DNA of 58,092 bases from IMG/VR virus record IMGVR_UViG_3300042290_000649, positions 1-58,092 of that record. The stretch is one strand, 5' to 3'. Below are positions 2,296 through 58,092 of this stretch, one piece after another; the stretch's first letter is position 1, and every line of letters starts with the position of its first letter. The stretch is from a virus (taxonomy: Duplodnaviria; Caudoviricetes). The position numbers were made by a program, and so were the translations under genes. Under the pieces are notes generated by a model that worked only from the letters and a program-made list of their open reading frames with translations, was not told the origin of the DNA and made no database searches.

Positions 2296-2296
2296 C

Positions 2297-3217
2297 TTAT
2301 GCCGCCTTAATAATATAGTGAACCTGATAGGTTTCGTAAGAGTGGCTAGTGTGCGTGTGCGATCCGTTGCTTGATGGTGTTGCTGTGTGATTGTGGTTTA
2401 CTATGGATGATGAGGTTGTGTTTCCAGAACTCGCAAGGCTGAAAACTGGGCTATGACGATGGGATGAGTGCGCCGACCAAGATGAAGTTGTAACGGAGTG
2501 GCTGTGCGTGTTTGTTGATACCGTTGGAGCAGTATGCGTATGCGCCGTTGATGCCCTTGTCGATCCGGTAATAACGGCGCCAAATCCAGCACCAGACGCA
2601 ACAGACGAGGTGTGGGTGTGGCTCTGCCCGGCATTTGACGTGTCTGAATATGTATGGCCAGTAAAAGTAATTGCCCCATCAGATGCAGTTGCTGAGTGAG
2701 TGTGCGTGTAGTCATGCTCTAGTTCGGTAAATTCTGTGTATGTCAGTGCATGCGAGTGTGTTGCCGCATCTCCAACGTGCGCAGCGATCTCAGTGGCATC
2801 TATGGTGCCCTGGCGAAATGTTGCCGTGTTGTCAATGTTTCCCAGTAGGTCAAGTCCCGCCGCCCCAACAACCTGATACCCCTGAAGGTCCGGGACATTA
2901 AACGTTGTTGATCCATTACCCGTCCCAAACCTTGTAGAAACTATTGAGAAAAGACCAGAGTAAGTTGACCTTGAAACCGCCTGACCTGCGCACACAAGCC
3001 AGCCAGACGGGGTTGAGGCGCCAAGCCATGGCTGAATAGAGCCAATGGGCATATCAATTGACGAAGAGCCACCCAGAGATGACCAAGATGTTCCGTCGTG
3101 GACTCGAATAACAGCATTCACGCTGTCGTAATAAATTAACCCAGCGCCAGAATATGTAGACTCAACATTTGCTTGCGTGGCAACCGGCAACTTAATGCTG
3201 GAAAGAATCTTTGTCAT
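2297..3217 (-). CDS. Tail collar domain fibre protein 2 (His-x-His-rich)
   Basis: PSGWLVCAGQAVSRSTYSGLF...GNGSTTFNVPDL; start moved to ATG 3217, which overlaps the upstream stop (ATGA); ends YIIKAA. Confidence 0.85.
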   Translation of the reverse strand: MTKILSSIKLPVATQANVESTYSGAGLIYYDSVNAVIRVHDGTSWSSLGGSSSIDMPIGSIQPWLGASTPSGWLVCAGQAVSRSTYSGLFSIVSTRFGTGNGSTTFNVPDLQGYQVVGAAGLDLLGNIDNTATFRQGTIDATEIAAHVGDAATHSHALTYTEFTELEHDYTHTHSATASDGAITFTGHTYSDTSNAGQSHTHTSSVASGAGFGAVITGSTRASTAHTHTAPTVSTNTHSHSVTTSSWSAHSSHRHSPVFSLASSGNTTSSSIVNHNHTATPSSNGSHTHTSHSYETYQVHYIIKAA

Positions 3218-4149
3218 GTTTTCACCAAATACCAAACTCTTGCCCTATTGGCAGAGTGATTGTCGTGAGTGTGTGCTGCGGTTGCGTCTGCGGCCATTGA
3301 GCCGCCGTGCGTGTGCCCACTCACCGCTCCGGATGTGTTGGTGTACGAAGGCACTGTTCCGGTATAGGTGTGGCTATGGCCGCCGCTAGTGCCTACGGAC
3401 TCTGTGACCGTATGCGAGTGAGCATTGCCTCCAGAGATGTCCCCCACCGTGTGCGTGTGGCCTGTCGCAGCGGCCGATTCGTTGGTTAGGGATGTAGACA
3501 TAGAAATGGTTCCGACAGAGGCCGCAAGATTACCAACCGAGTGGGAATGTCCATCCGAAGATGTGGCGCCAACATACGTATGGGTGTGCCCGCTCGCAGC
3601 AGTCTGGCTTGAATACGTGGCTGTTGTTGTGTGGTTTGTTGCGTGAGTATGCCCGCCCTGCGAGTCGTCAGTAAACGTGTGCGTATGCGCTGCGTTGTCG
3701 GACGAGTGCGTAAGCGCAGTAAAGGGATCAGCAGACCCGTATGTCCAGACTTTTCCGCCAGAAGTGTTGCCAACCGCAACTCCAAGATTTGCGGATACCG
3801 CCCCAACAAGGCTGAGCCCCCTGAAATTGGGAACGTTAAACGTTGTGGTTCCGTCGCCAATGCCAAAGTACGTCCCAATTACTGCAAAAAGATCAGCGTA
3901 CGTTGTTCTGGACACGGCGCCCCCACTGCAATTGAGCCAACCGGCTGGCCTAGACGCTGGCGATCCAGTCCAGGCAATAACGGAGCCCGTTGGCATTTCT
4001 GTGGTTGTTACCCCGCCTAGGGCGCTCCACGTAGAGGCGCCCTTGACCTTTAACTCGTCAGTAAAACTGTTGTAATAAAGGGTACCCTCGTCCGCTGTGG
4101 GGTCCGAGGTAAATTCGGCGCTCTTAAGGGTGTTGACGAATTTAGGCAT
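3214..4149 (-). CDS. Tail collar domain fibre protein 3 (His-x-His-rich)
   Basis: PAGWLNCSGGAVSRTTYADLFAVIGTYFGIGDGTTTFNVPNFRG; ends YLVKT. Confidence 0.85.
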   Translation of the reverse strand: MPKFVNTLKSAEFTSDPTADEGTLYYNSFTDELKVKGASTWSALGGVTTTEMPTGSVIAWTGSPASRPAGWLNCSGGAVSRTTYADLFAVIGTYFGIGDGTTTFNVPNFRGLSLVGAVSANLGVAVGNTSGGKVWTYGSADPFTALTHSSDNAAHTHTFTDDSQGGHTHATNHTTTATYSSQTAASGHTHTYVGATSSDGHSHSVGNLAASVGTISMSTSLTNESAAATGHTHTVGDISGGNAHSHTVTESVGTSGGHSHTYTGTVPSYTNTSGAVSGHTHGGSMAADATAAHTHDNHSANRARVWYLVKT

Positions 4150-29800: not shown

Positions 29801-32800
29801 TCGATGATGCCCTTGGGTGTGACCATTCAATTGTGCCATAACGTTTGCAAGGTACTCGCCCGTAAATTTGTTGATATGCGCTATCCATTGTTCATACGGA
29901 GCGTCTTCGCTAATCGCCGGAACGTTCATGACATAGTCAGAAAGGATTCTCCGTAGTTTTGCACTGACTTCGCTGGGCAAATTATTGCCTGAGTTCTCAA
30001 GCGTCTCTTGGATTTTCATCATGTAGTCATAGATCGCCTCGTGAATTGGCTCGATGTCGCGGCTCAGGCCAACCGACCCCCTGCCGCCAATTGCGGCCAT
30101 GTGCCCACCTTCGTGTGAGGCGATAGCGCCAAAGCCCATCATTGGAACCAGTTCGCCGTCCTTCTTTGTGCGCATTTTTTCTGCTACTTGGAGCGATGCG
30201 TATGTTTGGTATCCGCCGTCAGGCTGCTCAACGCCCCTTGTGACATGAGAGTACCCAGGAGCATTTTGATACGTATCGTCTGTGCTATCCACCGTCGTAA
30301 CGCTTATGCCACGATTGACCGTTGGAATCTTCGCAAGCAAAGCAAGCAGTTCATTTGCCGCAGCAAAGGCCGCCGAATCCGCCGATACTTCATCTCCCTT
30401 GTGGACAACGGTAACTATTGCCTTGTCCGGTAGCGGTGGCAGATCTCCCCTATCCGCCGTAGTTGCGTGCGACTGGTCTACTTCTACCTGGGAGACTTGC
30501 AATCCCATTGATGCAAGGTAGTCAAGAACTGTCTGCGCAATAATTTTTGCCTCTGCCAATGAAACATTTTCGTTGTCTTTTGGATCTTTAACCCCCTTAC
30601 GGGCTGCATCGTCTTGCAGGTCATACGGGATCATGCCCATCCCGATAGATTGAATCTGCTCCGGTGTCAGCCCTTCAAGCGACGTAATCCTATTGAATTG
30701 AGACATTGCTGGGGTAAGCGGCGCTGTTTCCATGTTCCGTTGCATGACTGGGGCTGGGCGACCGACGCCTTGAGATGTTCTTACCGGGTCAAATACGTCA
30801 TATCCGTAAACTCTTGAGGAGCCATCGCCAAGTTGTGGGGCATCCGAAGCAAGGTCAGGGATGTATTCCTTAAACGCCGCTATTCGTTGCTTAAGCAACT
30901 CAAGATCTATTTTTGCCTGTCGCTCTTCTTCTGCAAGTTGCGAAAGAATCTCTGGGTCTTGTCCTACCAACTCAGCAAGCAGGGGGAAATTGCCAAGAAC
31001 TTCCATAATCTTTGGAACTCCCTGGATAATCTCGGCAAACTTTGTTCGGGTCTCAGCATTTCCAAGGTCGAACTTCCCTGGCTCAGCAGAAAGTGCCTTC
31101 AGATCTGCACGCTTCGCCTTGCCACCAACGGTTCCCTCTCCCGGTATCATTGCCCGCAGGGCATCCGGGTCCAGTAGATTCCTTGCCATCGCCTCTGCAA
31201 GAATCTTAGTAATTTCTTCTGGATCACCAGCGGTAACTGTTTCCGCTATTGCGCGGAGTTGCGATTCCTCTGCTGCCGCACCGTAATCGCCAAAGGGAAC
31301 ACCTGGTACATCTGCGCGACCGGTACCCGCGCCCCTTGTCTGCTTTACCGAGTAGGCATTTTTTGATGCCTGGGTCAAGGCATCTAGATTTGTTATAAGC
31401 GGCGTTAGAATATCCCTTGCAACAACTGCGGCAAGCGCGGGGCGATCGGATTCTGAAACCGCACCAGAAGTCGCAGCGCCGCTTTTAACGAAATCTAGTG
31501 CGCCAAGAACGCCGCCGCCTCCCTGGCCAAGAGCACCAACAACATCCTTGATTCTCTGCATCGCCGCCGCCGATTCTCTATTCATCTCACTTGGGTCAAT
31601 CTTCATCTTCTGCACTGCAGCCATGATGCTCATTAACCCAACAAGGTGATCACGAAGTTCTGATGCAATTTCTGGCTTTACCGTCTTACCAGACGAAAGC
31701 GTTGCTGTAATTTCAGCAAAAAGTGCTTCAATATTCACCACCGTGCGATCGACAGTATCTACAAACTCGGCGAGATCTTTTCCAGTTGCGGTAACTGTTT
31801 GAAGTTCAATTCCTCTCTTGCCTGTTTTTTCGATTCTTGTCGAAAGCATGGCGGCAACAGGATTGCCGATTTCCTCGTTTCTAACTGCCCCATCTTCTTC
31901 TCGGCTGTATGATGGATACGGCGAAAAGAGTTGGCTTACCCTTGCCAGTGCCAGGGGGTTTTGAACCCCGGCAATTGGGCTTCTTGATGGCCTCAGGACG
32001 CCCGTTTCCTCATCCTCAATAACCCCAAGTTGCCGGTCTTCTTCTATACCAATAGCGGCAAGAAGACCGGAAATTCCACCAGATGCTTTTACTCCACCCT
32101 TTGAAATTTCCCTAAGTTCTGCGCGAATAGTTGCAAGGCGCTCCGCTTCTACCTCTGTCCTGTTTTCAATTGCAGCAAGTTCTGTTTCTTCTATCTCTAG
32201 AAGTTGCACTCGCGCTCTGGCAATTCCCTTCGAAACACCGGTTGTTCCAATTTCCCTAAGATCGCCAGACGGCAGTACATCGCTAACGCTTCTGCCGCCG
32301 CTGCGGAGCCTGCGCATCCGCTCTTCAACTCCTCGGTCTTCATCTTCACGGCTAGAGACCATTGATATTGCCCTAAGGGCGGGGCTGCTCTGAATTGCCC
32401 TGCCGATGGCGGCCTCGGCGGCGATCCTTGCGGCGCCCTCCGGTACCGGCTCTGGGGGCAACGCGCCGCCTCGCAGGACTTCCACATCGGACTTCTTCCT
32501 GCGCCCAGTTGCTCTACCCGGCGTGTACGCCTTAGAAAGGATTTGATTACGGAATTCAGCGACCTCTTCATCAGTTCTTGGGGCTGCCGCCTTGAACTCC
32601 TCAATCATAGTGGCGGCAATTTCCTTCATGAACGTCTTGATCAACTTGTCAAAATCGATCTCTCCGATCACATCTTGAACCGCCTCTTGTATCCTTCTTT
32701 GGGCATCGATAACTGCAGAGGAGTACGCAACTTTCGCTTCTGCAATTTTTCTATCAAGTTCTTCCAATAGGGGAGTTGAAGATCGCAGGCTCGGCGTCCC

Positions 32801-38679: not shown

Positions 38680-39014
38680 CTGTCGACCCTCTTTGCCCCC
38701 AAGATAAGGTGGTGGCGAAGCCCTTCCCTAATTACTTCATCAACCTGGAACTGAAGGTTGTCAGCCTCAACTAGGTCTGCAATCGTTGGTTGATTTGTTC
38801 CGGTCAAATAGGGGATAAAGAAAAGATACCTCGCCTCTGCTGCCTGGCCTGTGGACGTATAGAGTTGCGATACTGATTCTTTGCTTTCTGGCTGGTAGTG
38901 GCACTTTCCTGACCAGACAGTCGTCAACTCAACTGTAGGCGTGCCGTCTGCCGCGTGGCCTGTTTGCCCAACGCGCTTGATTGTGACCGAAGTGGTGAAC
39001 CCCGGCAGGCTCAT
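38676..39014 (-). CDS. Head closure (stopper) protein
   Basis: 112 aa, beta-rich (VTIKR...DGTP...VWSGKC), gene position. Confidence 0.7.
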   Translation of the reverse strand: MSLPGFTTSVTIKRVGQTGHAADGTPTVELTTVWSGKCHYQPESKESVSQLYTSTGQAAEARYLFFIPYLTGTNQPTIADLVEADNLQFQVDEVIREGLRHHLILGAKRVDR

Positions 39015-39925
39015 CGGACATTTACCACGACATAGTCGTCCAGTATGGCGGCCGCAGTCCCCGGGATACCACCAAATCGCACCCCAGGCTCCGGCATGTG
39101 ACGCTTCATGCTCATTGATCCGACAGTTAGTTCGCTTAGCGCCCCAAGGCCCTGCTTGTCCAGTGAGTCTTCAGCAATCAGGTGAGCGGTGATAATCGCC
39201 GTTGCGTCCTTGACGTCCTCTGGAACCTCCGAATAGCCGCTGACGTAGGTCAAAACTGCCACCGGCTCAATAAGCCCAAGGTTCACAAGCACGGGGAATA
39301 GTGAGTATGTAACGGTCGCAAGGCTGGTAACCTCAAAGTAGTTCCTGTCCTTGTTTACAAAGATGTCGTTTACGGTGAATGCCGCACTCTGCTGCGCGCT
39401 AACGTTTACGGTCAGCGAAACAATTGAAACGATAGGTCGACGATACGGGTAGACCCTTCTCGTTGCTTGGCTCCACTTGTGCTTCTCTGTGTCTTGTCGC
39501 AACTGAAAAGATTGCTGAGTGTAGGAATCAACAAGGCTACTGGCAACCTTTATGAAGCGCTCCAACTTTCGGTCGCCCATGTCTGAGCCATCGGCATTAG
39601 TGAGGACGCCCATCTCGTATTCCCGGAACTGATCAACGGTGATGTAGCCCTGCTCCTGCCCACGGAATGGAGTGGACCAGGAGCCCCCGCTGCTCCCCGT
39701 GGAGTTGGATGGTCGCCAGGTGTGCCATTGCCCCACGGCAGCGGTGCTGTCAAAATAGTCATAGGCAGAAACAAGCGAAGACAGGGTAATCACAGCACCA
39801 AGGTCAACAAAAGAGCCGGTCCGGCTTGTCGCCTCGGCTGAGGTTGCCGCGCGTCCCAACTGAATGTGGGAATACGAAGCAATAGTTGTTGCGATGCTTG
39901 GAACGGGTACTGTTACTTTAATCAT
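39011..39925 (-). CDS. Head-tail connector (adaptor) with an extra N-terminal domain
   Basis: YITVDQF...ASSLVDSY...YVSGYSEVPEDVKDA...ILDDY. Confidence 0.8.
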   Translation of the reverse strand: MIKVTVPVPSIATTIASYSHIQLGRAATSAEATSRTGSFVDLGAVITLSSLVSAYDYFDSTAAVGQWHTWRPSNSTGSSGGSWSTPFRGQEQGYITVDQFREYEMGVLTNADGSDMGDRKLERFIKVASSLVDSYTQQSFQLRQDTEKHKWSQATRRVYPYRRPIVSIVSLTVNVSAQQSAAFTVNDIFVNKDRNYFEVTSLATVTYSLFPVLVNLGLIEPVAVLTYVSGYSEVPEDVKDATAIITAHLIAEDSLDKQGLGALSELTVGSMSMKRHMPEPGVRFGGIPGTAAAILDDYVVVNVR

Positions 39926-40008
39926 GGGTAAATACTATGCCAAATAGGACACCACGTCCATCCGGCTAGTGCCTGCGATGAACGTGGTGTGGCTAGTTTT
40001 GAGGCTGT

Positions 40009-46653: not shown

Positions 46654-46816
46654 GTTGTATCATCAGCAGCCATGCTTTTGTATGCCCTGCAAAGTGCTAA
46701 ACTCCTCACCATCGCCGAAGAAGGCATCTGTTAGTAAGGTGAATGATCATGCTAAGAAAACTGTTTCAAAAAAGAAAAGAAGTGCCGCAGGAAGTACCAA
46801 AACCAAGTCCTCCTGA
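46646..46816 (+). CDS. Small basic protein (CFCMPC)
   Basis: ATG 46646 overlaps the upstream stop; overlaps the next ORF by ~70 nt. Confidence 0.4.
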   Translation: MDKLYHQQPCFCMPCKVLNSSPSPKKASVSKVNDHAKKTVSKKKRSAAGSTKTKSS

Positions 46817-47021
46817 AATTTCTGATTTGCTTGCAGGGACCGCAAAAGAATTGCACGACTTGGGGGTCAGGTACGCAGTCGTCAGCATCGCTGCGACCGA
46901 GGACAACCAAGATGTCATTGCACTAAGAACGGCATCTTTGCGCCTAGAGCGGATGTCTCGACAGTTTTCTATGAGCGCAAACCTCCTTAAGTCACGGCGC
47001 ATTGACGAAGAGACGGAGTAA
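46749..47021 (+). CDS. Hypothetical protein
   Basis: TAAGGTGA RBS; stop overlaps the HNH start. Confidence 0.55.
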   Translation: MLRKLFQKRKEVPQEVPKPSPPEISDLLAGTAKELHDLGVRYAVVSIAATEDNQDVIALRTASLRLERMSRQFSMSANLLKSRRIDEETE

Positions 47022-47314
47022 TGTCCAGGAAGGACCCCGTAACACAAGACCTCCGCTACGCGCTCATGTCCCGAGACCGGGGGTGCGTTGGGCCTCGAAT
47101 CGGGATGCCAGGGCTTTGCGGCAGCCAATTCGGCTCCGGTGGGCGTATTATTCTGGAAGTAGATCATGTAAACTCTGCTGGCTTCGGTAAGCGGGGTCCC
47201 AGCACAGAGGGAAACTGCGTTATTCTCTGTGGGTACCACCATCGGCTTAAGACGGAAGCCTCAAGAACGTGGCGGCCGTTATTAAACAATTATTTGGAGA
47301 ATCAGAATGGCTAG
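47021..47314 (+). CDS. HNH endonuclease
   Basis: RDRGC...C...LEVDHV...GNCVILCGYHHRLKT. Confidence 0.88.
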   Translation: MSRKDPVTQDLRYALMSRDRGCVGPRIGMPGLCGSQFGSGGRIILEVDHVNSAGFGKRGPSTEGNCVILCGYHHRLKTEASRTWRPLLNNYLENQNG

Positions 47315-47501
47315 GTTTGCGGAAGAGTTGTCGAGACTGAATTCTATATGTCAGTGGGCACAATGCCCTAATCGCGTGCGCATCAACGACAAGACTGCCG
47401 CCATCAAGAACCTTGGCCCGGTCCTCCAGTTGGGCGCCATGCAGTTGCATGTTTCGTGCGCAGAAGCGCGAAATCGCACGGGTGAACCATATCGCTCTTG
47501 A
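47307..47501 (+). CDS. Small Zn-binding protein
   Basis: GGAG RBS; CQWAQC...HVSC. Confidence 0.55.
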   Translation: MARFAEELSRLNSICQWAQCPNRVRINDKTAAIKNLGPVLQLGAMQLHVSCAEARNRTGEPYRS

Positions 47502-47534
47502 CGATACGGTCGTGATACCTCATACTCATCGCCT

Positions 47535-47831
47535 ATGGAGAACAATGAGGTCAAGCAATCGGTATTTCGGTGCATCGATTGTGGCGGCCCAAAGTCAACC
47601 GAAGTTTCTGTTCGCTGCTGGGATTGCGCCCTTATTGAGAAGAGGGGCCGGTGGCATTTATCAAGCGTAGAGCGCGCTGGGAAAATTCTTGACGCTCGCG
47701 CAGGGGGGATGACCATGTCTGAAATTGCTCGCAAGTTTGGCGTCTCCAGACAGCGTGTGTATCAAATTGTGGACGCCTCTGGGCTTCCGCTAACAAACAA
47801 AGACCGAAGGGGTGGTAAGCATGACCGATGA
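47535..47831 (+). CDS. Zn finger + HTH DNA-binding protein
   Basis: CIDC, CWDC, then MTMSEIARKFGVSRQRVYQIV. Confidence 0.8.
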   Translation: MENNEVKQSVFRCIDCGGPKSTEVSVRCWDCALIEKRGRWHLSSVERAGKILDARAGGMTMSEIARKFGVSRQRVYQIVDASGLPLTNKDRRGGKHDR

Positions 47832-52692: not shown

Positions 52693-52995
52693 ATGCACCA
52701 AGACAGCCCTTCCACCCAAATCGCCGCTCTCCGTGGCTCTAAGGACCTTCTCCTGGAGTTCTGGGCCCCTTGGTGCGAGCCGTGTAAGCGCACGATGCCA
52801 GAAGTAGACCGTTTCGCAGCCCTTAACCCTCAGGTAGAGGTCGTCAAAATCAACGTGGATGTCGAGCGAGCCCTCACAAACGAGTGGGAAGTCCGCACCA
52901 TTCCGATGATGGTGTACGTACCAGTAGATGGAGCCCCACGCCAGATCATTGGCTTTATCCGCGCCGAGGAAATTGCGCGAAAGATTGCCGGCTGA
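52693..52995 (+). CDS. Thioredoxin
   Basis: EFWAPWCEPCK, KINVD, VRTIP; AAGGAG RBS before ATG 52693. Confidence 0.92.
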   Translation: MHQDSPSTQIAALRGSKDLLLEFWAPWCEPCKRTMPEVDRFAALNPQVEVVKINVDVERALTNEWEVRTIPMMVYVPVDGAPRQIIGFIRAEEIARKIAG

Positions 52996-53612
52996 TGCAT
53001 ACGGCCGTGATCGTTGCCGGCGGTGAGGCGCGTCGGTGGAAAAATTACGGTGGGGTGGCAAAGCATTTTGTAGAAATTGATGGCGAACGCCTCATTGACC
53101 GCACCATTTGCCAATCTTCCGCACTGTTTGAACGCACGGTCGCTGTTGTGCCCGAATCTAACTACGTTTCAGGGGTTGACCTGGAAATCATCGCCCCAGA
53201 AGAGACGAGAGCGCTCGAACCATGGAAGTTCCTCTCCTCAAAAGACGAGTGGAGCAGCGTTCGAACCACCCTGCTGTACGGAGACGTCTACTTCACCGAT
53301 TCGGCAATAAAAAAAATTGCAGCAGCAGAAGCGAAATTAGCATTTTTGATGCGCTGGACAAAGTCAGATCGCACAGGAAAGCGATATGGCGAGATCTACG
53401 CCATCAGTTTTACTGGATCTATGCATGGGCAGATCATTGCAGCCATGGAGGACTTCACCCCAGACCTAAGTATCCCTGCACGTGCTGGGTGGCACTTGCT
53501 ACATCGACTGTGGTCCGCCGCAACGATGGTTGAGATTGATGACGAGACGGAAGATTTTGATAACCCCGAGGATTACGAACGCTGGATGGTGGCTACGGGA
53601 AGAAGGGGTTGA
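52995..53612 (+). CDS. NTP transferase (MobA/LicC-like nucleotidyltransferase)
   Basis: AVIVAGGEARRW...K...IDGERLIDR, LYGDVYF, DFDNPED; TGATG overlap. Confidence 0.85.
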   Translation: MHTAVIVAGGEARRWKNYGGVAKHFVEIDGERLIDRTICQSSALFERTVAVVPESNYVSGVDLEIIAPEETRALEPWKFLSSKDEWSSVRTTLLYGDVYFTDSAIKKIAAAEAKLAFLMRWTKSDRTGKRYGEIYAISFTGSMHGQIIAAMEDFTPDLSIPARAGWHLLHRLWSAATMVEIDDETEDFDNPEDYERWMVATGRRG

Positions 53613-53657
53613 CACTCAACCCCTGCGGATTGGAGAAAAAATTTAGGTGCAGCCTTT

Positions 53658-53698
53658 GAAAACGCCAACCCCCCCGCCTGACTCGGCGAGGGGGTTGG
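53658..53698 (-). terminator. Terminator ending the leftmost cassette
   Basis: CCAACCCCCTCGCC-gagtca-GGCGGGGGGGTTGG-CGTTTT on the minus strand. Confidence 0.75.
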
Positions 53699-53717
53699 GA
53701 TAGTCCAGAGCCGATAA

Positions 53718-53798
53718 CTAGCCGCGCCGCATCACGGCGAGGATGACGATCCAAGTAGCCGCGATGTAGGCGAGGGTGAGCAGTCCCTCGCCGCTCAC
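53718..53798 (-). CDS. 26-aa single-helix membrane peptide
   Basis: MSGEGLLTLAYIAATWIVILAVMRRG; GTG overlaps the upstream TGA; GAGGTGGAGG upstream. Confidence 0.6.
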   Translation of the reverse strand: MSGEGLLTLAYIAATWIVILAVMRRG

Positions 53799-54016
53799 GC
53801 CTCCACCTCGCGGAGTGCCTCGCGTACGGCTGCCGTATGAGCCGCGCACGCTGGGACTACGAGGGCTGCCGTGCGGCGCGCGCCGTAGAGTCCGTGCGTT
53901 GGCGGGTACTGCTCGGCGACGCTGACGCTGACGAGGGCGACCGCGCCCTCGCCGCACGCCGTTGCGCCGCACGAGCGAACCTGATCCGATCCGAGCCGTG
54001 TGATTGTTGCGCTCAT
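53795..54016 (-). CDS. Hypothetical protein (C-x4-C...CxxH)
   Basis: GGGAGGCACT-ATG; 73 aa. Confidence 0.7.
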   Translation of the reverse strand: MSATITRLGSDQVRSCGATACGEGAVALVSVSVAEQYPPTHGLYGARRTAALVVPACAAHTAAVREALREVEA

Positions 54017-54048
54017 AGTGCCTCCCGATTGTGTGCCGTAGTGAGTAG

Positions 54049-54199
54049 AGGGGGCGACGCGCTACGGCACGCCGCCCCCTTGCCAGAGTGAGACTGACCG
54101 CCCGACTGACCGCCCGACTGACTGCCACCATTGCGCCGTAGCGAAGAGGATGGACTGACTGCGGGACTGACTGCGGGACTGACTGCTCCCCCTGACTGC
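54049..54199 (-). ncRNA. Candidate structured RNA/leader: rod with three symmetric C(A/G)GUCAGU internal loops, cUACGg apex and a 3' hairpin
   Basis: Six 12-nt-period GACTGACYG units (54092, 54104, 54116, 54153, 54165, 54177) whose linkers switch between CCCG and CGGG across the centre; downstream of the promoter motif at 54203. Confidence 0.6.
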
Positions 54200-54202
54200 T
54201 TC

Positions 54203-54235
54203 ACTATCTCACCCCGCCGCCCTGAATCCACCGAA
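54203..54235 (-). promoter_or_regulatory. Cassette promoter motif, variant copy
   Basis: TTCGGTGGATTC-N11-GTGAGATAGT. Confidence 0.65.
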
Positions 54236-54344
54236 GGGCGACGCACGCCGTAGGGCACGCCGAAGGGCGCGCCGAAGGCGACCCGAAGGGTGAAGAATAG
54301 GAAGATGGAAACCACGGGAAGGCGGGCATAGGTTATGCGTAAGA

Positions 54345-54389
54345 CATAACACATAACACATAACACATAACCCATAACCCGCCAGAAAC
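54345..54389. repeat. Heptad array 1: 5 x (N)CATAAC + CCAGAAAC
   Basis: Units at 54345, 54352, 54359, 54366, 54373. Confidence 0.9.
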
Positions 54390-54427
54390 AAAAAAGGGGC
54401 GACGACCCCGAAGGATCGCCGCCCCTT
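54390..54427 (-). terminator. Cassette terminator
   Basis: AAGGGGCGGCGATCC-ttcg-GGGTCGTCGCCCCTTTTTT. Confidence 0.85.
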
Positions 54428-54431
54428 GTGC

Positions 54432-54497
54432 TCACCGCCGACCGACGATCCACGCCATTACGACGACGACCGCGACCAGATACAACACCTCACCCAC
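54432..54497 (-). CDS. 21-aa membrane peptide
   Basis: MGEVLYLVAVVVVMAWIVGRR; paralogue of 57293..57358. Confidence 0.65.
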   Translation of the reverse strand: MGEVLYLVAVVVVMAWIVGRR

Positions 54498-54645
54498 GCG
54501 CCACCGCGTAGACGAGATGCGCCGCGAAGTACGCCGCCGCCGCGACGATGCCGTACCACGCGATACGCCCGACGAGGGCGCGATTCTTGCGCTCCTGCTC
54601 CATCTCCGCATAGGTGCGAAGGCTGACGATTGTTCTCCGATTCAT
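54490..54645 (-). CDS. 51-aa protein with a C-terminal TM helix
   Basis: MNRRTIVSLRTYAEMEQERKNRALVGRIAWYGIVAAAAYFAAHLVYAVARG; GAGAGGGCACT-ATG. Confidence 0.7.
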   Translation of the reverse strand: MNRRTIVSLRTYAEMEQERKNRALVGRIAWYGIVAAAAYFAAHLVYAVARG

Positions 54646-54702
54646 AGTGCCCTCTCTTTCTGCGACGACGCGCCGCCCCGAAGGGCGACGCGCCGCCGCG
54701 CT

Positions 54703-55155
54703 CTACTTTACAAACTCCTCGCCGTTCACAACGACCGACGAGATGCGCTCCAAGCCATAGGCGCGGTGTGAGTGCCGCTCACCCTTGCCGTAGCACGACG
54801 ACCCCTCACGGGAAGCGTACGGGCAAGCCGTTGCCTCGCCGTACTCGTTCATCGCGTAGACGAGGAAGCCGAGCGACTGCGTGCCTTTCTTGGAGAGGCG
54901 TACGGGATCGCCGCCGCCCCAAGCAGGATCGGGGCGACCGCTGACGCGTACCACCGAGATCGTGCCGCCGTCTACCTCGTGCGTGCTGATTGTCTGCTGC
55001 GCGGCGAAGGTGTGCCCTTCCACCGCTTTATTCTCCGCATCGGCGGCGCGCTTGGCGAGAACCTTCTCGCTCGTTGGAAGCGTGCTCGCCACGAGGGTGA
55101 ACACGCGCCCCTTCGCCGCTGCGATTGCGGCGTGGATCTGCTCTGCCGTTGCCAT
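54703..55155 (-). CDS. 150-aa protein, possible SH3/Sm-like (WYL-related) barrel
   Basis: AAAGGAGAG RBS, start 55155; GRVFTLV...LVY...RAYGLERISSVVVNGEEF. Confidence 0.65.
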   Translation of the reverse strand: MATAEQIHAAIAAAKGRVFTLVASTLPTSEKVLAKRAADAENKAVEGHTFAAQQTISTHEVDGGTISVVRVSGRPDPAWGGGDPVRLSKKGTQSLGFLVYAMNEYGEATACPYASREGSSCYGKGERHSHRAYGLERISSVVVNGEEFVK

Positions 55156-55200
55156 AGTGCGCTCTCCTTTCATACTGCGGGGAAGCCCCCCGACTCCTAT

Positions 55201-55233
55201 ACAATGCCACGCCCCTACGCTGAATCCACCGAA
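55201..55233 (-). promoter_or_regulatory. Cassette promoter motif
   Basis: TTCGGTGGATTC-N11-GTGGCATTGT. Confidence 0.75.
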
Positions 55234-55280
55234 GCCGCCGAGGTGCTCCCCGAAGGGTGAAGCGCACGCCGAAGCGCGGC

Positions 55281-55373
55281 GGATTCTTTCGGATTGGATT
55301 ATGGGGATACGGGTACGGGTAAGCGTATACACATAACACATAACCCATAACCCATAACACATAGCCCAGAAAC
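55281..55373. repeat. Spacer array 2: GGATT units, ACGGGT units, 5 heptads, CCAGAAAC
   Basis: Heptads at 55332, 55339, 55346, 55353, 55360. Confidence 0.9.
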
Positions 55374-55375
55374 AC

Positions 55376-55410
55376 AAAGAGGCGACACCCCCGAAGGGAT
55401 GCCGCCTCTT
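55376..55410 (-). terminator. Cassette terminator
   Basis: AAGAGGCGGCATCCC-ttcg-GGGGTGTCGCCTCTTTG. Confidence 0.8.
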
Positions 55411-55429
55411 GCCGTTGCCCCTGTGTGCG

Positions 55430-55819
55430 CTACCTGCTCTGTGGCTCGTAGGTGTCCATCCACTCGCCGCAGAGTCGCGTGCGCTCTACTGCCTCTGCGC
55501 CCTTCGCAGTCCTGCTGCTCGTTTCTGGATCGTTAGTCCACGCGCGAACCTGCGCGATGGTGAGTCCATCGGCGACTGTTTCGCTTGGATACCGACCACC
55601 CGCAAACACGCGAACGATTCGGAAAAGCGTTTCCGTTTCGTCTAGCGATGCCCCGCAAGCGAAGCACGCGGGGGTGTCCTCGTTCACATCGGGGCTATAC
55701 ACGGTGTCCATCGCCTCTGTTGCGCCCTGTGTGCCATCGGCACAATCGCGGCACATCACGACCCCTGCCGTTGTGTCCACATAGCCGACCAGAACGATGC
55801 CGCTTCCTGTGTTCGTCAT
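55430..55819 (-). CDS. Hypothetical protein with CxxC...CxxC and a C-terminal DPETSS domain
   Basis: GGAAGGAGCGCACT-ATG; 129 aa. Confidence 0.75.
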   Translation of the reverse strand: MTNTGSGIVLVGYVDTTAGVVMCRDCADGTQGATEAMDTVYSPDVNEDTPACFACGASLDETETLFRIVRVFAGGRYPSETVADGLTIAQVRAWTNDPETSSRTAKGAEAVERTRLCGEWMDTYEPQSR

Positions 55820-55862
55820 AGTGCGCTCCTTCCATACTGCGGAGAATCTCTCCGACTACTAA

Positions 55863-55895
55863 ACAATGCCACACGGCAACCCCGAATCCACCGAA
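55863..55895 (-). promoter_or_regulatory. Cassette promoter motif
   Basis: TTCGGTGGATTC-N11-GTGGCATTGT. Confidence 0.75.
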
Positions 55896-55933
55896 CGACC
55901 CGAAGGGCAAGGGGAAGGGTGAAGCGTGCGACT

Positions 55934-56030
55934 GATTGGATTGGATTGGATTGGATTGGGTGAACGGGTACGGGTAATGGGTAATACATAACGCATAACG
56001 CATAACGCATAACCAATAACCCCCAGAAAC
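55934..56030. repeat. Spacer array 3: (GATTG)5, ACGGGT units, 7 phased TAA heptads, CCAGAAAC
   Basis: cgggTAAtgggTAAtacaTAAcgcaTAAcgcaTAAcgcaTAAccaaTAAc. Confidence 0.9.
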
Positions 56031-56032
56031 GC

Positions 56033-56066
56033 AGAAGGGGCGAGCCGCCCCGCGACCCGCCCCCTC
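56033..56066 (-). terminator. Cassette terminator
   Basis: GAGGGGGCGGGTCGC-ggg-GCGGCTCGCCCCTTCT, weak U tract. Confidence 0.7.
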
Positions 56067-56080
56067 GTTGTGTGTGTGTC

Positions 56081-56482
56081 CTAGATCGTGCGCCCGTCGT
56101 ACATCGGGAAGCCGCCATCGTTGAGCACGCGCTCAATCTTGACGATCTCCGCATCCGTGAAGCCGCGCAACTCGTCATCGTGTACCAGTACCGCATCGCC
56201 AGCCAAGCCGCCACCTGCTAGGTAGAGCGGCGCGCTCTTCGTTGCCACCGCGAACACATCGCACGCGGTGAGGTTGATACGCGGATTCTGTACGAGAAGC
56301 CCCTCCTCGTCTACCAGAAGCGCAACGGGTACGCCGCCGAGATTGCCGCGCCCGACCATCTCCACATACTGGCAACCGATCGCGTCATACATTGGCTGTA
56401 AGCCGTTCACGCCGCGCTCCGTCTTCACGATGCGATGCGTGCCATCTTCTAGCGCGCGGATTACATACATTGACCCTGCCAT
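56081..56482 (-). CDS. DUF3846-like protein
   Basis: LQ....IGCQYVEMV...LLVDEEGL...P.IN..A...LAGDAVL...GFTDAEI; AAGGAGG RBS, start 56482. Confidence 0.8.
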   Translation of the reverse strand: MAGSMYVIRALEDGTHRIVKTERGVNGLQPMYDAIGCQYVEMVGRGNLGGVPVALLVDEEGLLVQNPRINLTACDVFAVATKSAPLYLAGGGLAGDAVLVHDDELRGFTDAEIVKIERVLNDGGFPMYDGRTI

Positions 56483-56530
56483 TTGTGTGCCTCCTTCTTT
56501 CTTCTTACGGGGAAGCCCCCCGATGAGTAG

Positions 56531-56563
56531 ACAATGCCACACATCGGGGAGCAATCCACCGAA
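56531..56563 (-). promoter_or_regulatory. Cassette promoter motif (no upstream terminator or heptad array)
   Basis: TTCGGTGGATTG-N11-GTGGCATTGT, 2 nt after the upstream stop codon. Confidence 0.75.
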
Positions 56564-56565
56564 AC

Positions 56566-56724
56566 CTACTTTGCCCATCGCCTACGCTTCATCTCCTCGC
56601 GGAAGCGTGCGATTGCCTCGCGCTTTGTGTATCCGTAGTAGGAGATGGATTCCAAATAACCATCAACCACGGCGGAGATAACCCACGAGCCGTTGTGCCA
56701 TTGGCGCGTTGCGCTAATCGTCAT
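56566..56724 (-). CDS. 52-aa hypothetical protein
   Basis: MTISATRQWHNGSWVISAVVDGYLESISYYGYTKREAIARFREEMKRRRWAK; AGGAGG RBS. Confidence 0.75.
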   Translation of the reverse strand: MTISATRQWHNGSWVISAVVDGYLESISYYGYTKREAIARFREEMKRRRWAK

Positions 56725-56787
56725 AACCCCTCCTAGCGTTGGCGGCGGAGCCGAAGCCCCGCCGCCGTTGTGAGGCGAAGCCGTCGC

Positions 56788-57033
56788 CTAGCGGTAGTAC
56801 TTCTCGCGTACTTCTTCCGCCGCGATTGCGGCGAGAGAGTCTACGAGGTAGAGGCGAATCTGCTCAACCGCGAGCAAACGGCGCTCTACGCAATGGCGTG
56901 AATCGCACGCCGCGAGAGAAGCGCAAGAGCCTTGCTCTTCGTTCTCGGTAATGTTCTTGGCGATGGCGAGAATCTGATTCTCAACCTGCGCCTCGGTGAG
57001 TACCTGCTCACCGATGAGATGGCGGTATGGCAT
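56788..57033 (-). CDS. 81-aa hypothetical protein
   Basis: GAGGAGGT RBS, start 57033 (MPYRHLIGEQV...). Confidence 0.7.
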   Translation of the reverse strand: MPYRHLIGEQVLTEAQVENQILAIAKNITENEEQGSCASLAACDSRHCVERRLLAVEQIRLYLVDSLAAIAAEEVREKYYR

Positions 57034-57081
57034 ACCAGACCTCCTCAATGTTTGAGCGGTATCGCCGCTCCCGATGAATAC

Positions 57082-57114
57082 ACAATGCCACACCCCGCGC
57101 CGCAATCCACCGAA
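57082..57114 (-). promoter_or_regulatory. Cassette promoter motif
   Basis: TTCGGTGGATTG-N11-GTGGCATTGT. Confidence 0.75.
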
Positions 57115-57160
57115 ACCCGCAACGGCACGCGGAGCCGAGCAGCAACGGCGAGGGCAGGGC

Positions 57161-57253
57161 GGATACGGAGCAATGGGGATACGGGTACGGATACGGGTAA
57201 TGGATAACTCGTAACACATAACGCATAACCCGTAACTCATAACCGCCAGAAAC
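57161..57253. repeat. Spacer array 4: ACGG(G/A)T units, 6 TAAC heptads, CCAGAAAC
   Basis: Units at 57203, 57210, 57217, 57224, 57231, 57238. Confidence 0.9.
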
Positions 57254-57292
57254 AAAGAAGGGCGAGCCGCCGAAGCGACCCGCCCTTCTTTG
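57253..57292 (-). terminator. Cassette terminator
   Basis: CAAAGAAGGGCGGGTCGC-ttcg-GCGGCTCGCCCTTCTTTG. Confidence 0.85.
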
Positions 57293-57358
57293 CTACCTAC
57301 TGCGCATCAACCACGCCATCACCGCAATAACGGCGACGAGGTACAGCGCCTCACTCAC
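57293..57358 (-). CDS. 21-aa membrane peptide
   Basis: MSEALYLVAVIAVMAWLMRSR; GGAG upstream; paralogue of 54432..54497. Confidence 0.65.
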   Translation of the reverse strand: MSEALYLVAVIAVMAWLMRSR

Positions 57359-57527
57359 TTGGCTCCGCGTACTTCACGCGGCGAGCCTCAGCGATAGCGC
57401 GCTTGCGATCATCACCGCGCTTCTCGCGGCGATGCTTCTCACAACAATCACCATCAGCAGCAGGACGCTTCGTCCAACGGACGGAGTGCTCTGGGATGGC
57501 GATCTTCTCAACACCACGACGATTCAT
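57351..57527 (-). CDS. 58-aa basic protein
   Basis: MNRRGVEKIAIPEHSVRWTKRPAADGDCCEKHRREKR...; GAGGAGG RBS. Confidence 0.7.
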   Translation of the reverse strand: MNRRGVEKIAIPEHSVRWTKRPAADGDCCEKHRREKRGDDRKRAIAEARRVKYAEPSE

Positions 57528-57587
57528 ACACCCTCCTCTGTGGCTCGCGGCGACGGAGCCGAAGCCCCGCCGCCGTCCGCCGATTGT

Positions 57588-57917
57588 TTAGGCGACGACT
57601 TCTGTCGCCGACTCTGCGAGTTCCAGAACATCGCTCTGGTCTGCGTTGCCCTCCAACGCGGTGCGAATCTTGGCGATGATTGCGGTCAGTCGCTCGTTCT
57701 CAGCGACCACCTCAGCGACCATCTCCTCTACTGAGTCCAGAGCCTCCTGAACCTCATCAGCGTGCGACTCAGCGGAGTTCGCTGAGTCCGTTGCCGAACT
57801 GGCGTAGTCCTGAGCATCAGAAGCCTCTGATGCTGCGTCCTGCGCCGCTGACGATGCGCGCTCCGCGCTGCGGCGTGCCTCCGCTAGGATGTCCGTGAGT
57901 TTCTGTGTATCGGTCAT
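57588..57917 (-). CDS. Acidic Ala/Ser/Glu-rich coiled-coil protein
   Basis: GAGGAGGT RBS; 109 aa. Confidence 0.75.
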   Translation of the reverse strand: MTDTQKLTDILAEARRSAERASSAAQDAASEASDAQDYASSATDSANSAESHADEVQEALDSVEEMVAEVVAENERLTAIIAKIRTALEGNADQSDVLELAESATEVVA

Positions 57918-57963
57918 AAGACCTCCTCACTTGGGAAGCGATCACAGCGCCTCCTCTACTTCT

Positions 57964-57996
57964 ACAATGCCACACCCCTGTGGTGAATCCACCGAA
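57964..57996 (-). promoter_or_regulatory. Cassette promoter motif
   Basis: TTCGGTGGATTC-N11-GTGGCATTGT. Confidence 0.75.
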
Positions 57997-58049
57997 CTTC
58001 CCGACGAGGTGCGCGACGGCACGAGGTCAGGGTCAGCAGGATTGTGGAG

Positions 58050-58092
58050 CGGTGATACGGGAGTTCGGATACGGGTAATGGGTAATGGGTAA
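58050..58092. repeat. Start of spacer array 5, truncated by the window end
   Basis: ggatACGGGTAATGGGTAATGGGTAA, same pattern as arrays 3 and 4. Confidence 0.8.

What the first reader, a model, noticed from the sequence alone, without database searches (positions are those of the whole stretch)
53658..58092. Array of self-contained expression cassettes built on one repeated non-coding scaffold
Seen, on the minus strand: [terminator]-GTTTCTGG-(GTTATGN)n-(TACCCG)n-(CAATC-like)n-[TTCGGTGGATT..GTGGCATTGT]-[5' stem-loop]-strong SD-1 to 3 small unrelated genes-[terminator]. There are six promoter units and the array continues past the window. Cargo genes differ while the scaffold order is fixed. Established analogues: PeSL cassettes of T4-type phages and the SPO1 host-takeover module. 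Inference: a gene capture/shuffling platform for anti-host genes, with a more elaborate scaffold than those analogues. This is my best candidate for an undescribed system.
Basis: partly seen in the sequence, partly recalled or inferred. Interest (0 to 1): 0.9.

Follow-up and report, generated by a model that had tools for sequence, protein, structure and literature searches.

The report
Phage early-gene promoter–terminator cassette array
One end of this lake-water phage genome is a long row of small self-contained gene units built on one repeated promoter-terminator scaffold, and related phages keep the scaffold but swap one short part of the promoter.

Summary
On the minus strand of 53.65-58.09 kb there are six promoter-like units: five exact copies of TTCGGTGGATT-N12-GTGGCATTGT and one degenerate copy. 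Most follow the order intrinsic terminator, (GTTATGN)n, C-rich short repeats, promoter, 5' hairpin, strong SD, 1-3 small genes. The window is an incomplete viral contig and holds only the tail of the array; a close relative has 16 units over about 18 kb.

My best reading is an early-gene region of a siphovirus transcribed by host RNA polymerase from extended -10 promoters (TGGCATWGT). Expression was not tested.

The new point is comparative. Across 23 related sequences the -10, leader and cargo are shared. The 11-18-nt box at the -35 position falls into about seven lineage-specific types. It is uniform within each contig, with one mosaic. This implies a lineage-specific reader, which I did not identify.

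Cassette loss, gain and reordering do occur with joints inside the scaffold. Gene order is mostly conserved, and I found no recombinase and no foreign capture. That makes it a PeSL-like recombination effect rather than a dedicated capture platform.

It is a new variant of a known kind.

The parts
58073..58092 (-). Hexamer/heptamer (TTACCCA-like) repeats of the scaffold upstream of unit 1, cut by the window end
   Evidence: TRF; sequence
57964..57996 (-). Promoter 1: box A (TTCGGTGGATT), 12-nt spacer, extended -10 (GTGGCATTGT)
   Evidence: 0 mismatches
57293..57917 (-). Cassette i cargo: 109-aa coiled-coil-like ORF (57588-57917), 58-aa ORF (57351-57527), 21-aa hydrophobic mini-ORF (57293-57358)
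57246..57288 (-). Intrinsic terminator: GC-rich hairpin with TTCG loop (57257-57288), then a T-tract ending in GTTTCTGG
   Evidence: sequence
57203..57243 (-). (GTTATGN) heptamer array, about 6 copies
57115..57202 (-). C-rich spacer with TACCCG-type hexamers
57082..57114 (-). Promoter 2
   Evidence: 0 mismatches
56566..57033 (-). Cassette j cargo: 81-aa and 52-aa ORFs separated by a hairpin without a T-tract
56531..56563 (-). Promoter 3, bare: it abuts the stop codon of the 52-aa ORF, with no terminator or repeats upstream
56081..56482 (-). Cassette k cargo: 133-aa DUF3846 protein
   Evidence: (PF12957, E 2e-06)
56023..56064 (-). Terminator-like hairpin (56037-56064) and T-rich tail ending in GTTTCTGG
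55987..56020 (-). Heptamer array, about 4-5 copies
55896..55986 (-). C-rich spacer: TTACCC hexamers, then CCAAT pentamers x5 (55934-55959)
55863..55895 (-). Promoter 4. Its scaffold is a mosaic of the two scaffolds that flank cassette l in relative G001
55430..55819 (-). Cassette m cargo: 129-aa ORFan
55377..55410 (-). Intrinsic terminator
55332..55365 (-). Heptamer array; one side of a population deletion joint
55201..55233 (-). Promoter 5
54432..55155 (-). Cassette n cargo: 150-aa Cys/His-bearing ORF (54703-55155; a 35-38% identical paralogue sits in cassette e of relatives), 51-aa ORF (54490-54645), 21-aa hydrophobic mini-ORF (54432-54497)
54394..54427 (-). Intrinsic terminator
54338..54378 (-). 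Heptamer array; the other side of the population deletion joint
54203..54235 (-). Promoter 6: box A intact, -10 degenerate (3 mismatches)
54092..54186 (-). Long leader of unit 6 with two sets of 12-nt tandem repeats that share a GTCAGTC core
53718..54016 (-). Cassette o cargo: 73-aa ORF and overlapping 26-aa hydrophobic mini-ORF
53659..53698 (-). Terminal terminator of the array, facing the terminator of the convergent + strand gene 52884-53612

Best explanation
This is the distal third of a multi-promoter early-gene region of a tailed (siphovirus-type) lake-water phage. The host is unknown.

Each unit is a self-contained transcription unit. It has an extended -10 promoter (TGGCATWGT, read as TGn plus CATWGT) used by host RNA polymerase, and a box at the -35 position. 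The transcript starts a few bases before a stabilising 5' hairpin. A strong Shine-Dalgarno sequence drives 1-4 small genes, and an intrinsic terminator ends the unit.

Between the terminator and the next promoter lie a (GTTATGN)3-10 microsatellite and a C-rich spacer.

The box does not resemble a housekeeping -35. It is invariant within a genome and replaced as a set between close relatives. I infer that it is the binding site of a lineage-specific regulator that controls all units together. That regulator could be an activator replacing sigma region 4 contacts, as MotA does, or a monomeric repressor or shut-off factor.

Because the scaffold is repeated 13-16 times in direct orientation, homologous recombination between copies deletes, duplicates and reorders whole cassettes.

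Shown here: the anatomy, its conservation, the box types, and the cassette joints.
Inferred: The function of the heptamers beyond serving as recombination joints is unknown.
For: Anatomy and statistics.

Viral context. The record is a 58-kb linear viral contig, about 67% complete. It encodes TerL, portal, major head protein, a tape-measure domain and tail fibres. A recombination/replication module (PD-(D/E)XK nuclease, IstB-like ATPase, SSB) converges on the array.

Scale. G001 has 14 copies of the promoter pattern (up to 3 mismatches), all on one strand. There are 16 box-A sites in the merged G001/G002 sequence, 13 box-C promoters in G004, and 11-13 box-B promoters in G003.

Box types. 123 TGGCATWNT motifs were found in 23 related sequences. 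Every sequence with at least 2 promoters uses one box family, except one mosaic (G005 = L107, one A and one C). The same leader and gene (for example the 271-aa cassette b) sit behind boxes A, C, D and E.

Geometry. The core hexamer lies 14 nt upstream of TGG, which is -35..-30 with a 17-nt spacer.

Boxes occur in the array and essentially nowhere else. The exceptions are one extra forward hit in the window genome and one reverse hit inside the array of G001/G002.

Homology blocks between genomes start at the -10 and end in the heptamers.

Leader hairpins: 75 of 79, built from many different stem sequences.

Cassette-level changes. Population joints 54378->55334 (DNA runs X8 and X12) and 55406->56079/56082 (X8; also X24) are. 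A one-heptamer insertion variant is, table 4.

No sigma-70 region 2 match in five records.

Analogy for the box. The T4 MotA box lies at -35 to -26 beside a host -10, and about half of those promoters carry TGn (PMC2988021, passages read).
Against: - No expression data. The one RNA-library run holds contigs that also cover predicted non-transcribed scaffold, so it may be DNA carry-over, and contigs cannot show starts or ends.
- No reader of the box was found. The tandem-HTH protein encoded in cassette c of relatives is 88-93% identical across box types A, C, D and E, so it does not track the box.
- The Zn-ribbon/HTH protein at 47535-47831 tracks box type in overall identity: 89% A-A, 60% A-C, 49% A-B, next to a 98% identical neighbour. 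Its recognition helix is invariant, and only four genomes could be compared.
- All records are 39-80% complete, so a sigma factor, RNA polymerase or integrase could lie in missing parts. The phage-type RNA polymerase family search is void because its control matched nothing in any control genome.
- CATWGT is a weak -10 by the E. coli consensus, and the generic sigma-70 scan did not call these sites.
- Early timing rests on analogy only.
Confidence: 0.7

Rival explanations
1. A dedicated gene-capture platform. Here the scaffold would be a recombination site for a specialised system that takes up foreign anti-host genes, as integron attC sites do or as PeSL mini-circles are proposed to do.
For: Cassettes are bounded by conserved joints and are lost, gained and reordered. 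The terminal cassette differs between lineages: o in the window and G001, another set in G004/G005. The array has higher G+C (0.60-0.615) than the rest of the genome (0.49-0.58).
Against: Order a to n is largely the same in nine related contigs, and orthologues are mostly 63-100% identical, with a few at 39-55%. There is no tyrosine integrase in five records. Resolvase was not searched. Joints lie in ordinary repeated sequence, as expected of homologous recombination, and the phage carries a PD-(D/E)XK nuclease and SSB. New cassettes that can be traced arose by duplication inside the array: e/n at 35-38% identity and d3/l2. The 'goes back' joints are explained by the paralogous scaffold beyond the window end or by strains with another box, not by circles.
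Confidence: 0.1
2. The promoters are read by a phage-encoded or virion-delivered polymerase or sigma factor whose upstream specificity differs between lineages. The bipartite motif would then be its private promoter rather than a host -10 plus a regulator site.
For: Neither half matches the sigma-70 consensus well. The box sits exactly at -35 and changes between lineages. The 5,542-aa virion protein is about 90% unannotated and diverges in parallel with box type: 84% A-A against 42-44% A-B and A-C over partial lengths.
Against: No Sigma70_r2 match in five records. No Pfam or PHROG polymerase hit and no D-x-D-G-D motif in the giant protein. The -10 half is identical in all lineages and has the TGn-A-T pattern of an extended -10. 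A lone TGGCATAGT without any box sits 8 nt before the start codon of a structural gene, with identical flanks in lineages A and C.
Confidence: 0.1
3. An array of morons or lysogenic-conversion genes. These would be autonomous promoter-gene-terminator units expressed from a prophage, with the box as the operator of something other than the lytic programme.
For: Each unit has its own promoter and terminator, and the array differs in G+C from the rest of the genome. Recalled, not checked here: the moron definition of Juhala et al. 2000.
Against: No integrase was found in 39-80% complete records. Thirteen to sixteen units share one promoter, which points to co-regulation as a block. The first cassettes in relatives carry DUF932 and RadC, families typical of first-entering regions (that association is recalled).
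Confidence: 0.06
4. The box has no reader. Its uniformity within genomes would be concerted evolution by gene conversion among repeated scaffolds, and the promoters would work through the extended -10 alone.
For: Extended -10 promoters can work without a -35 element (established knowledge). Scaffolds do recombine.
Against: Within a genome the box is invariant, while the 12-13 nt between box and -10 and the 60-100 nt upstream of the box differ from unit to unit. Conversion tracts would homogenise those flanks too.
Confidence: 0.04

Closest known systems
PeSL (promoter-early stem-loop) cassettes of T4-type myoviruses (Arbiol et al. 2010, PMC2839356: outline and section 13 read; Comeau et al. 2014, PMC4122927: abstract read)
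   Same: Composite terminator/promoter motifs sit in front of ORFans in a plastic region. Recombination between copies gives insertions, deletions and replacements between close relatives.
   Different: PeSL promoters match the host sigma-70 consensus with an AT-rich upstream region, and the stem-loop lies in or next to the promoter. Here there is no consensus -35. A lineage-specific box sits in its place, the terminator and promoter are 130-190 nt apart, and they are separated by a heptamer microsatellite and a C-rich spacer. The hairpin after the -10 is in the leader. The phage is a siphovirus. Units form one unbroken array rather than scattered hyperplastic regions. Mini-circles were not tested.
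T4 middle promoters: MotA box plus host -10, sigma appropriation (PMC2988021, passages read)
   Same: A host-type -10, often with TGn, is combined with a phage-specific element that replaces the -35. The MotA box spans -35 to -26; here the core is at -35..-30 with an extension to about -23.
   Different: No MotA or AsiA relative was sought or found. In T4 one box serves the whole group, whereas here about seven box types exist among close relatives. The sign of regulation is unknown here.
Stoperators of Cluster A mycobacteriophages (Mavrich and Hatfull 2019, PMC6550527, passages read; PMC9283540, abstract only)
   Same: Many copies per genome of a short asymmetric site in one orientation. Repressors with identical helix-turn-helix domains can have distinct motifs.
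   Different: Stoperators are spread over the whole genome and stop elongation. Here the sites are only at the -35 position of the array promoters. No repressor or integrase was found, and the differences between box families (GGTGGA against CCATAG cores) are larger than the graded motif variation described there.
SPO1 host-takeover module (recalled; PMC13401047 and PMC7698491 seen only in a search listing)
   Same: A block of many small early genes is served by several strong early promoters and terminators at one genome end.
   Different: As far as I recall, no repeated multi-part scaffold or lineage-specific box is described there. I did not check this in the primary papers.
phiC31 early promoters with conserved inverted repeats (recalled only; no paper found in the library)
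   Same: A family of near-identical, non-consensus early promoters in intergenic positions of a siphovirus, each associated with a repeated repressor site.
   Different: The phiC31 repeat is an inverted repeat, not an asymmetric box at -35. No heptamer arrays, as far as I recall. Unverified.

Membership tests
PeSL cassettes | Promoter identical or close to the host sigma-70 consensus (-35 and -10) | tested here: not met
   The generic sigma-70 scan calls none of the six sites. The -35 position holds GTGGAT, GTGGGA or CCATAG. The host is unknown, so its own consensus could not be compared.
PeSL cassettes | Stem-loop acting as terminator or attenuator within the composite motif | tested here: met
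   GC-rich hairpins with T-tracts precede the heptamers of units 2, 4, 5 and 6. Function was not assayed.
PeSL cassettes | AT-rich tract directly upstream of the -35 | tested here: not met
   The sequence directly upstream of the box is GC-rich and C-biased. The relatively AT-rich heptamers lie about 90-130 nt further up (distances).
PeSL cassettes | Located before ORFans in plastic regions, with recombination between copies producing indels | tested here: met
   ORFan cargo. Indels, a swap and a relocation with joints in the scaffold.
PeSL cassettes | Mini-circles formed by exchange between neighbouring motifs | not testable with these tools
   Only assembled contigs could be laid. The two 'goes back' joints have simpler explanations.
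PeSL cassettes | T4-type myovirus | tested here: not met
   The giant ORF carries a tape-measure domain and the head and tail genes are siphovirus-type. There was no blastn match in the phage collection.
MotA-type sigma appropriation promoters | Host -10 plus a phage-specific box replacing the -35, at fixed spacing | tested here: met
   Invariant TGGCATWGT. The box core lies 14 nt upstream of TGG in all types.
MotA-type sigma appropriation promoters | Phage-encoded activator and co-activator (MotA and AsiA homologues) | not tested
   No search with these families was made. No candidate emerged from the Pfam or PHROG scans of the proteins examined.
Stoperator-type immunity system | Many asymmetric sites, one orientation, lineage-specific motif | tested here: met
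   6 to 16 sites per sequence, all on the coding strand of the array, in seven motif types.
Stoperator-type immunity system | Sites distributed across the genome within transcribed regions | tested here: not met
   Boxes occur only in the array at the -35 position. One extra forward hit lies inside the giant gene of the window genome, and one reverse hit lies inside the array of G001/G002.
Stoperator-type immunity system | Cognate repressor and a temperate lifestyle | tested here: inconclusive
   No Phage_integrase match in five records that are 43-80% complete. One HTH protein (47535-47831) diverges in step with box type but has an unchanged recognition helix.

The most novel reading that the evidence does not exclude
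Each lineage of this phage group carries a private promoter code. An exchangeable -35-position box would be read by a fast-evolving phage factor, either a sigma-appropriation-like activator or a monomeric repressor. That factor would switch all 13-16 early promoters at once.

Phages about 94% identical elsewhere (box A against box C) would then be transcriptionally insulated from one another.
Probability: 0.35. Interest if true: 0.8.

Novelty: new variant of a known kind. Interest (0 to 1): 0.6.

Why it matters
Early regions are where phages keep host-takeover and counter-defence genes, and they are the least understood parts of phage genomes. This array offers three things.
- About 30 small genes marked as one co-regulated early set in an uncultured but common lake phage. 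It was seen in 23 lake-water DNA runs, of which 5 may be the source sample.
- A natural series of promoters that differ only in the -35-position box. This could reveal a new way of redirecting or insulating host RNA polymerase, and would give orthogonal promoter-reader pairs.
- A clean case of cassette turnover by recombination between regulatory repeats outside the T4 group, which suggests the PeSL principle is general.

Tried and rejected
1. Wider spread of the promoter. A relaxed pattern (box A plus TGGCAT) in the viral collection found four more contigs (L017, L018, L020, L021). All are single hits inside coding-looking sequence without the scaffold, so I take them as chance.

2. Heptamer arrays as a widespread phage motif. 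(GTTATGN)4 occurs in 33 stretches of the viral collection, many in unrelated phages and giant-virus bins. The same pattern read backwards gives 28 stretches. Outside this phage family the arrays are therefore background microsatellites.

3. Heptamers plus hexamers as a long hairpin or cruciform. Some units end the array with an inverted CATAACC copy and fold strongly (z -4 to -7). The mean z over 33 spacers is only -2.0, several are near 0, and some strong values come from included terminators. This is not a general feature.

4. C-rich spacer as a Rho-loading (rut-like) back-up terminator. Sense-strand C/(C+G) is 0.58-0.71 in 8 of 9 sequences against 0.43-0.47 for the arrays, but 0.51 in G004. 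I keep this as an idea only.

5. Cyanobacterial host via HIP1 (GCGATCGC): 1 site against 1.78 expected. Rejected.

6. Host identification. The major head protein against the genome collection gave one hit at 43% identity, on a 76.6-kb contig of a metagenome bin labelled Thermotogae, which may itself be viral. There are no tRNAs. The host stays unknown.

7. Known RNA families: 3 matches, all far below the gathering score.

8. No array gene tracks box type across seven related sequences. The tandem-HTH protein of cassette c is conserved across types. A scan for more genomes carrying the Zn-ribbon/HTH protein gave nine loci, of which four come from contigs not already held, and none of those reaches an array.

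9. Paralogy of the two DUF3846-like proteins (k and d1): no BLASTP alignment. Claim dropped.

10. Protein atlas for the 150-aa cargo: best scores 0.86-0.89, below the level at which a hit is more than a lead.

11. RNA evidence. Run X24 (RNA library, 8% of words) was laid. Its contigs cover both genes and scaffold at 90-99% likeness, which shows neither transcription nor its absence.

12. Polymerase in the giant protein: no family hit and no D-x-D-G-D motif. The PF00940 genome search is uninformative because its control matched nothing in any control genome.

13. Literature. 'Heptanucleotide repeats' with phage terms gave no paper holding that phrase among those listed. The phiC31 early-promoter papers are not in the library. 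Supplementary files were not opened, and those of the PeSL papers may hold motif lists that I did not see.

Full report
WHAT IS THERE

The window is a linear, roughly 67% complete viral contig of 58,092 bp.

The bipartite motif TTCGGTGGATT-N12-GTGGCATTGT occurs six times, all on the minus strand. Five copies are exact and one has three mismatches. None was expected in 100 shuffles.

Four arrays of the heptamer GTTATGN (4-6 copies each) lie at 54338-54378, 55332-55365, 55987-56020 and 57203-57243. There are none elsewhere in the window and none on the other strand.

Each array follows a GC-rich hairpin with a T-tract that ends in GTTTCTGG. Each is followed by a C-rich stretch with TACCCG-type hexamers and, clearly in one unit with a short run in a second, CAATC-type pentamers.

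After each promoter come a short hairpin, a GGAGG-type ribosome site and one to three small ORFs.

Exceptions:
- Promoter 3 abuts the preceding stop codon with no scaffold upstream.
- Unit 6 has a degenerate -10 and a long leader with 12-nt repeats.

THE PHAGE

The rest of the window encodes:
- a large terminase, a portal, a head protease, a major head protein and a head-tail adaptor;
- three tail-collar/fibre paralogues and a 2,257-aa fibre with an S74 chaperone domain;
- a 5,542-aa ORF with a tape-measure domain.

A plus-strand module (HNH-like ORF, a Zn-ribbon/HTH protein, PD-(D/E)XK nuclease, IstB-like ATPase, SSB) runs towards the array, and the two meet at facing terminators near 53650.

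There are no tRNAs and no nucleotide match in the phage collection. Five related records, 43-80% complete, have no tyrosine integrase and no sigma-70 region 2. The search for a phage-type RNA polymerase family is void because its control matched nothing in any control genome. The giant protein has no polymerase family hit and no D-x-D-G-D motif.

The stretch is held by 23 lake-water DNA runs, of which 5 may be the source sample.

RELATIVES AND THE TRUE SIZE OF THE ARRAY

An exact-pattern scan of the viral collection found two contigs. They are one phage (99.96% identity over 24.4 kb) and are 86-91% identical to the window.

One of them (G001) carries 14 copies of the promoter pattern on one strand, and 16 box sites once the head of the contig is included. 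These span about 18 kb and roughly 30 genes.

Window unit 1 corresponds to the tenth unit.

The upstream cassettes there encode DUF932, RadC-like JAB, DUF1281_C, DUF4241 and a tandem-HTH protein. The window's own cargo is ORFan apart from one DUF3846 protein.

A heptamer scan and a protein-based metagenome scan added further relatives: G003, G004, G005 and L088-L106.

THE MAIN NEW FINDING

In 23 related sequences I found 123 TGGCATWNT motifs in the array orientation.

The -10 element, the leader and the cargo are shared across all of them. The 11-18 nt at the -35 position fall into about seven types:
- A: (G/T)TCGGTGGATT
- A': TCGGTGGAATCTT
- B: CCTTAKCGGTGGGATCG
- C: GCTCCATAGTAGGTTT
- C2: GCTCCATAG(C/T)GATC
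- D: TATTGCCATAG-N-GGGGCG
- E: TATCGCCATAGAACGCCA

Every sequence with two or more promoters uses one family throughout. Examples are 13 of 13 in G004, 12 of 12 D-family sites in L091 (11 match the strict pattern), 8 of 8 in L092 and 9 of 9 in L096. The only mixed case is G005, with one A and one C.

The same leader and gene sit behind different boxes in different phages.

The core hexamer always lies 14 nt upstream of TGG. If CATWGT is -12..-7, that puts the hexamer at -35..-30 with a 17-nt spacer.

Within a genome the box is invariant, while the spacer to the -10 and the sequence upstream of the box vary from unit to unit. Gene conversion alone therefore does not explain the uniformity. A lineage-specific reader is the simplest inference.

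The window phage (A) and G004 (C) are 93-98% identical in most proteins, so the switch is recent.

No array gene tracks box type.

The tandem-HTH protein of cassette c is 88-93% identical across types A, C, D and E. If it binds the scaffold, it binds a conserved part.

The 98-aa Zn-ribbon/HTH protein at 47535-47831 (HTH_23, HTH_28 and weak Sigma70_r4 and Mor matches) is 89% identical between the two A phages. It is 60% identical to C and 49% to B, beside a neighbour that is 98% identical between A and C. Its recognition helix is unchanged.

In Cluster A mycobacteriophages, repressors with identical HTH domains can have different site motifs (PMC6550527, passage read). That observation means the invariant helix does not rule the protein out.

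More genomes could not be brought in. Of the loci found, four came from contigs not already held, and none reached an array.

LEADER HAIRPIN

Of 79 distinct 34-nt leaders, 75 fold with dG <= -6 kcal/mol. The stems mostly start 7-11 nt after the -10, which is at or just after the expected start site. They use many different stem sequences.

I read this as a 5'-terminal stabiliser. Function is inferred.

CASSETTE DYNAMICS

Homology blocks between genomes start at the -10 and end in the heptamers.

- Cassette l (65- and 79-aa genes) is present in G001, G004 and L091 and absent in the window, L090 and G003.
- The window scaffold at 55855-56085 is a patchwork of the two G001 scaffolds that flank l.
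- Cassettes h and i are swapped in G003.
- Cassette k lies after l in G004 and L091.
- The promoter between e and f is missing in G003.
- Two traceable pairs of cargo families are paralogues inside the array: e/n and d3/l2.

In lake metagenomes, contigs join 54378 to 55334, heptamers to heptamers, skipping cassette n. This is seen in two DNA runs. Contigs also join 55406 to 56079/56082, terminator to terminator, skipping cassette m. This is seen in one DNA run and one RNA-library run. A one-heptamer insertion variant also exists.

Recombination in the scaffold is therefore real and recurrent. Even so, the overall order is conserved and orthologues are mostly 63-100% identical, with a few such as a2, g2 and h6 at 39-55%. 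I see no evidence for uptake of foreign genes or for a dedicated recombinase.

WHAT THE REPEATS DO

The heptamer arrays are present in all box types, vary in copy number (3-10) and serve as joints.

Outside this family similar arrays are no more common than a reversed control, 33 against 28 stretches.

A general hairpin role is not supported.

The spacer is C-biased on the sense strand in 8 of 9 sequences. That would suit Rho loading on read-through RNA, but this is only an idea.

COMPARISON WITH KNOWN SYSTEMS

The array works like PeSL cassettes of T4-type phages in being a composite terminator/promoter before ORFans that mediates modular change (PMC2839356, section 13 read; PMC4122927, abstract read). 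It fails three defining features: a consensus sigma-70 promoter, an AT-rich tract next to the -35, and the T4-type host virus.

The promoter architecture is closest to T4 middle promoters, which combine a host -10 with a phage box at -35 to -26 (PMC2988021, passages read).

The many-copies, lineage-specific, asymmetric-site pattern is closest to Cluster A stoperators. Here, however, the sites are confined to promoter -35 positions.

SPO1 and phiC31 are cited from memory only.

VERDICT

- The finding is a new variant of a known kind. Its most interesting aspect is the set-wise replacement of the -35-position box among close relatives.
- Timing, polymerase, reader and cargo function remain untested.

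Noticed in passing
window 17813-34441 (-) and 11031-17804 (-): A 5,542-aa ORF without stops carries a tape-measure domain only around residues 2,980-3,090; the rest is unannotated. It is followed by a 2,257-aa tail fibre with an S74 chaperone domain. A tape measure of this length would be extraordinary if the whole protein sets tail length. It diverges strongly between lineages (84% to G001/G002, about 42-44% over parts to G003/G004).
   Followed up: partly
window 57293-57358, 54432-54497, 53718-53798 (all -); L013 8846-8911 and 14235-14300: A family of 21-26-aa hydrophobic mini-ORFs is conserved at the protein level. Each overlaps the stop of the preceding gene at the end of a cassette, or opens a cassette in the relative. 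They may be small membrane peptides.
   Followed up: partly
window 54016-54202 (-): Unit 6 has a ~190-nt leader with two sets of three 12-nt tandem repeats sharing a GTCAGTC core, plus a degenerate -10. It is conserved in G001. No Rfam family reaches its threshold.
   Followed up: partly
window 39934-39942 (-), before the gene 39011-39925: A lone TGGCATAGT lies 8 nt before the ATG of the head-tail adaptor gene, after a hairpin, with no box. Its flanks are identical in lineages A and C. This would give a nearly leaderless mRNA and suggests the -10 element can act alone. One such site is also within chance expectation.
   Followed up: partly
window 46743-47831 (+): This is a mosaic block. The 92-aa ORF, the HNH-like 97-aa ORF and the Zn-ribbon/HTH 98-aa ORF are 60-77% identical to G004, while the 64-aa ORF between them is 98% identical. 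The longest ORFs in this stretch lie on the minus strand and look spurious.
   Followed up: partly
window 52884-53612 (+): A gene for a MobA-like NTP-transferase domain protein lies directly next to the array end. It is present in the window and G003 (60% identity) and absent in G001/G002 and G004.
   Followed up: no
L013 8382-8681 (+), cassette c of relative G001: A 99-aa protein with two helix-turn-helix motifs in tandem is encoded inside the array. It is 79-93% identical across box types A, C, D and E, and 55% in the more distant type-B phage G003. It is a candidate binder of a conserved scaffold part or a regulator of the next gene class.
   Followed up: partly
window 54001-58000: G+C of the array (0.60-0.615) is above the rest of the genome (0.49-0.58).
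   Followed up: no
L051/L107 (G005) 459 and 1404: This is the only mixed array seen: a box-A promoter before cassette n and a box-C promoter before the next cassette. The box-A unit matches that of the all-A contig L106, which points to recombination between lineages.
   Followed up: partly
window 1345-4149 (-): Three consecutive paralogous tail-collar/fibre genes of 311-316 aa.
   Followed up: no
L029, L031, L028 and other loci: Unrelated viral contigs of 24-59% G+C carry (GTTATGA)n or (GTTATGT)n arrays in intergenic positions, some directly after terminator-like hairpins. Their frequency equals that of a reversed control pattern.
   Followed up: yes
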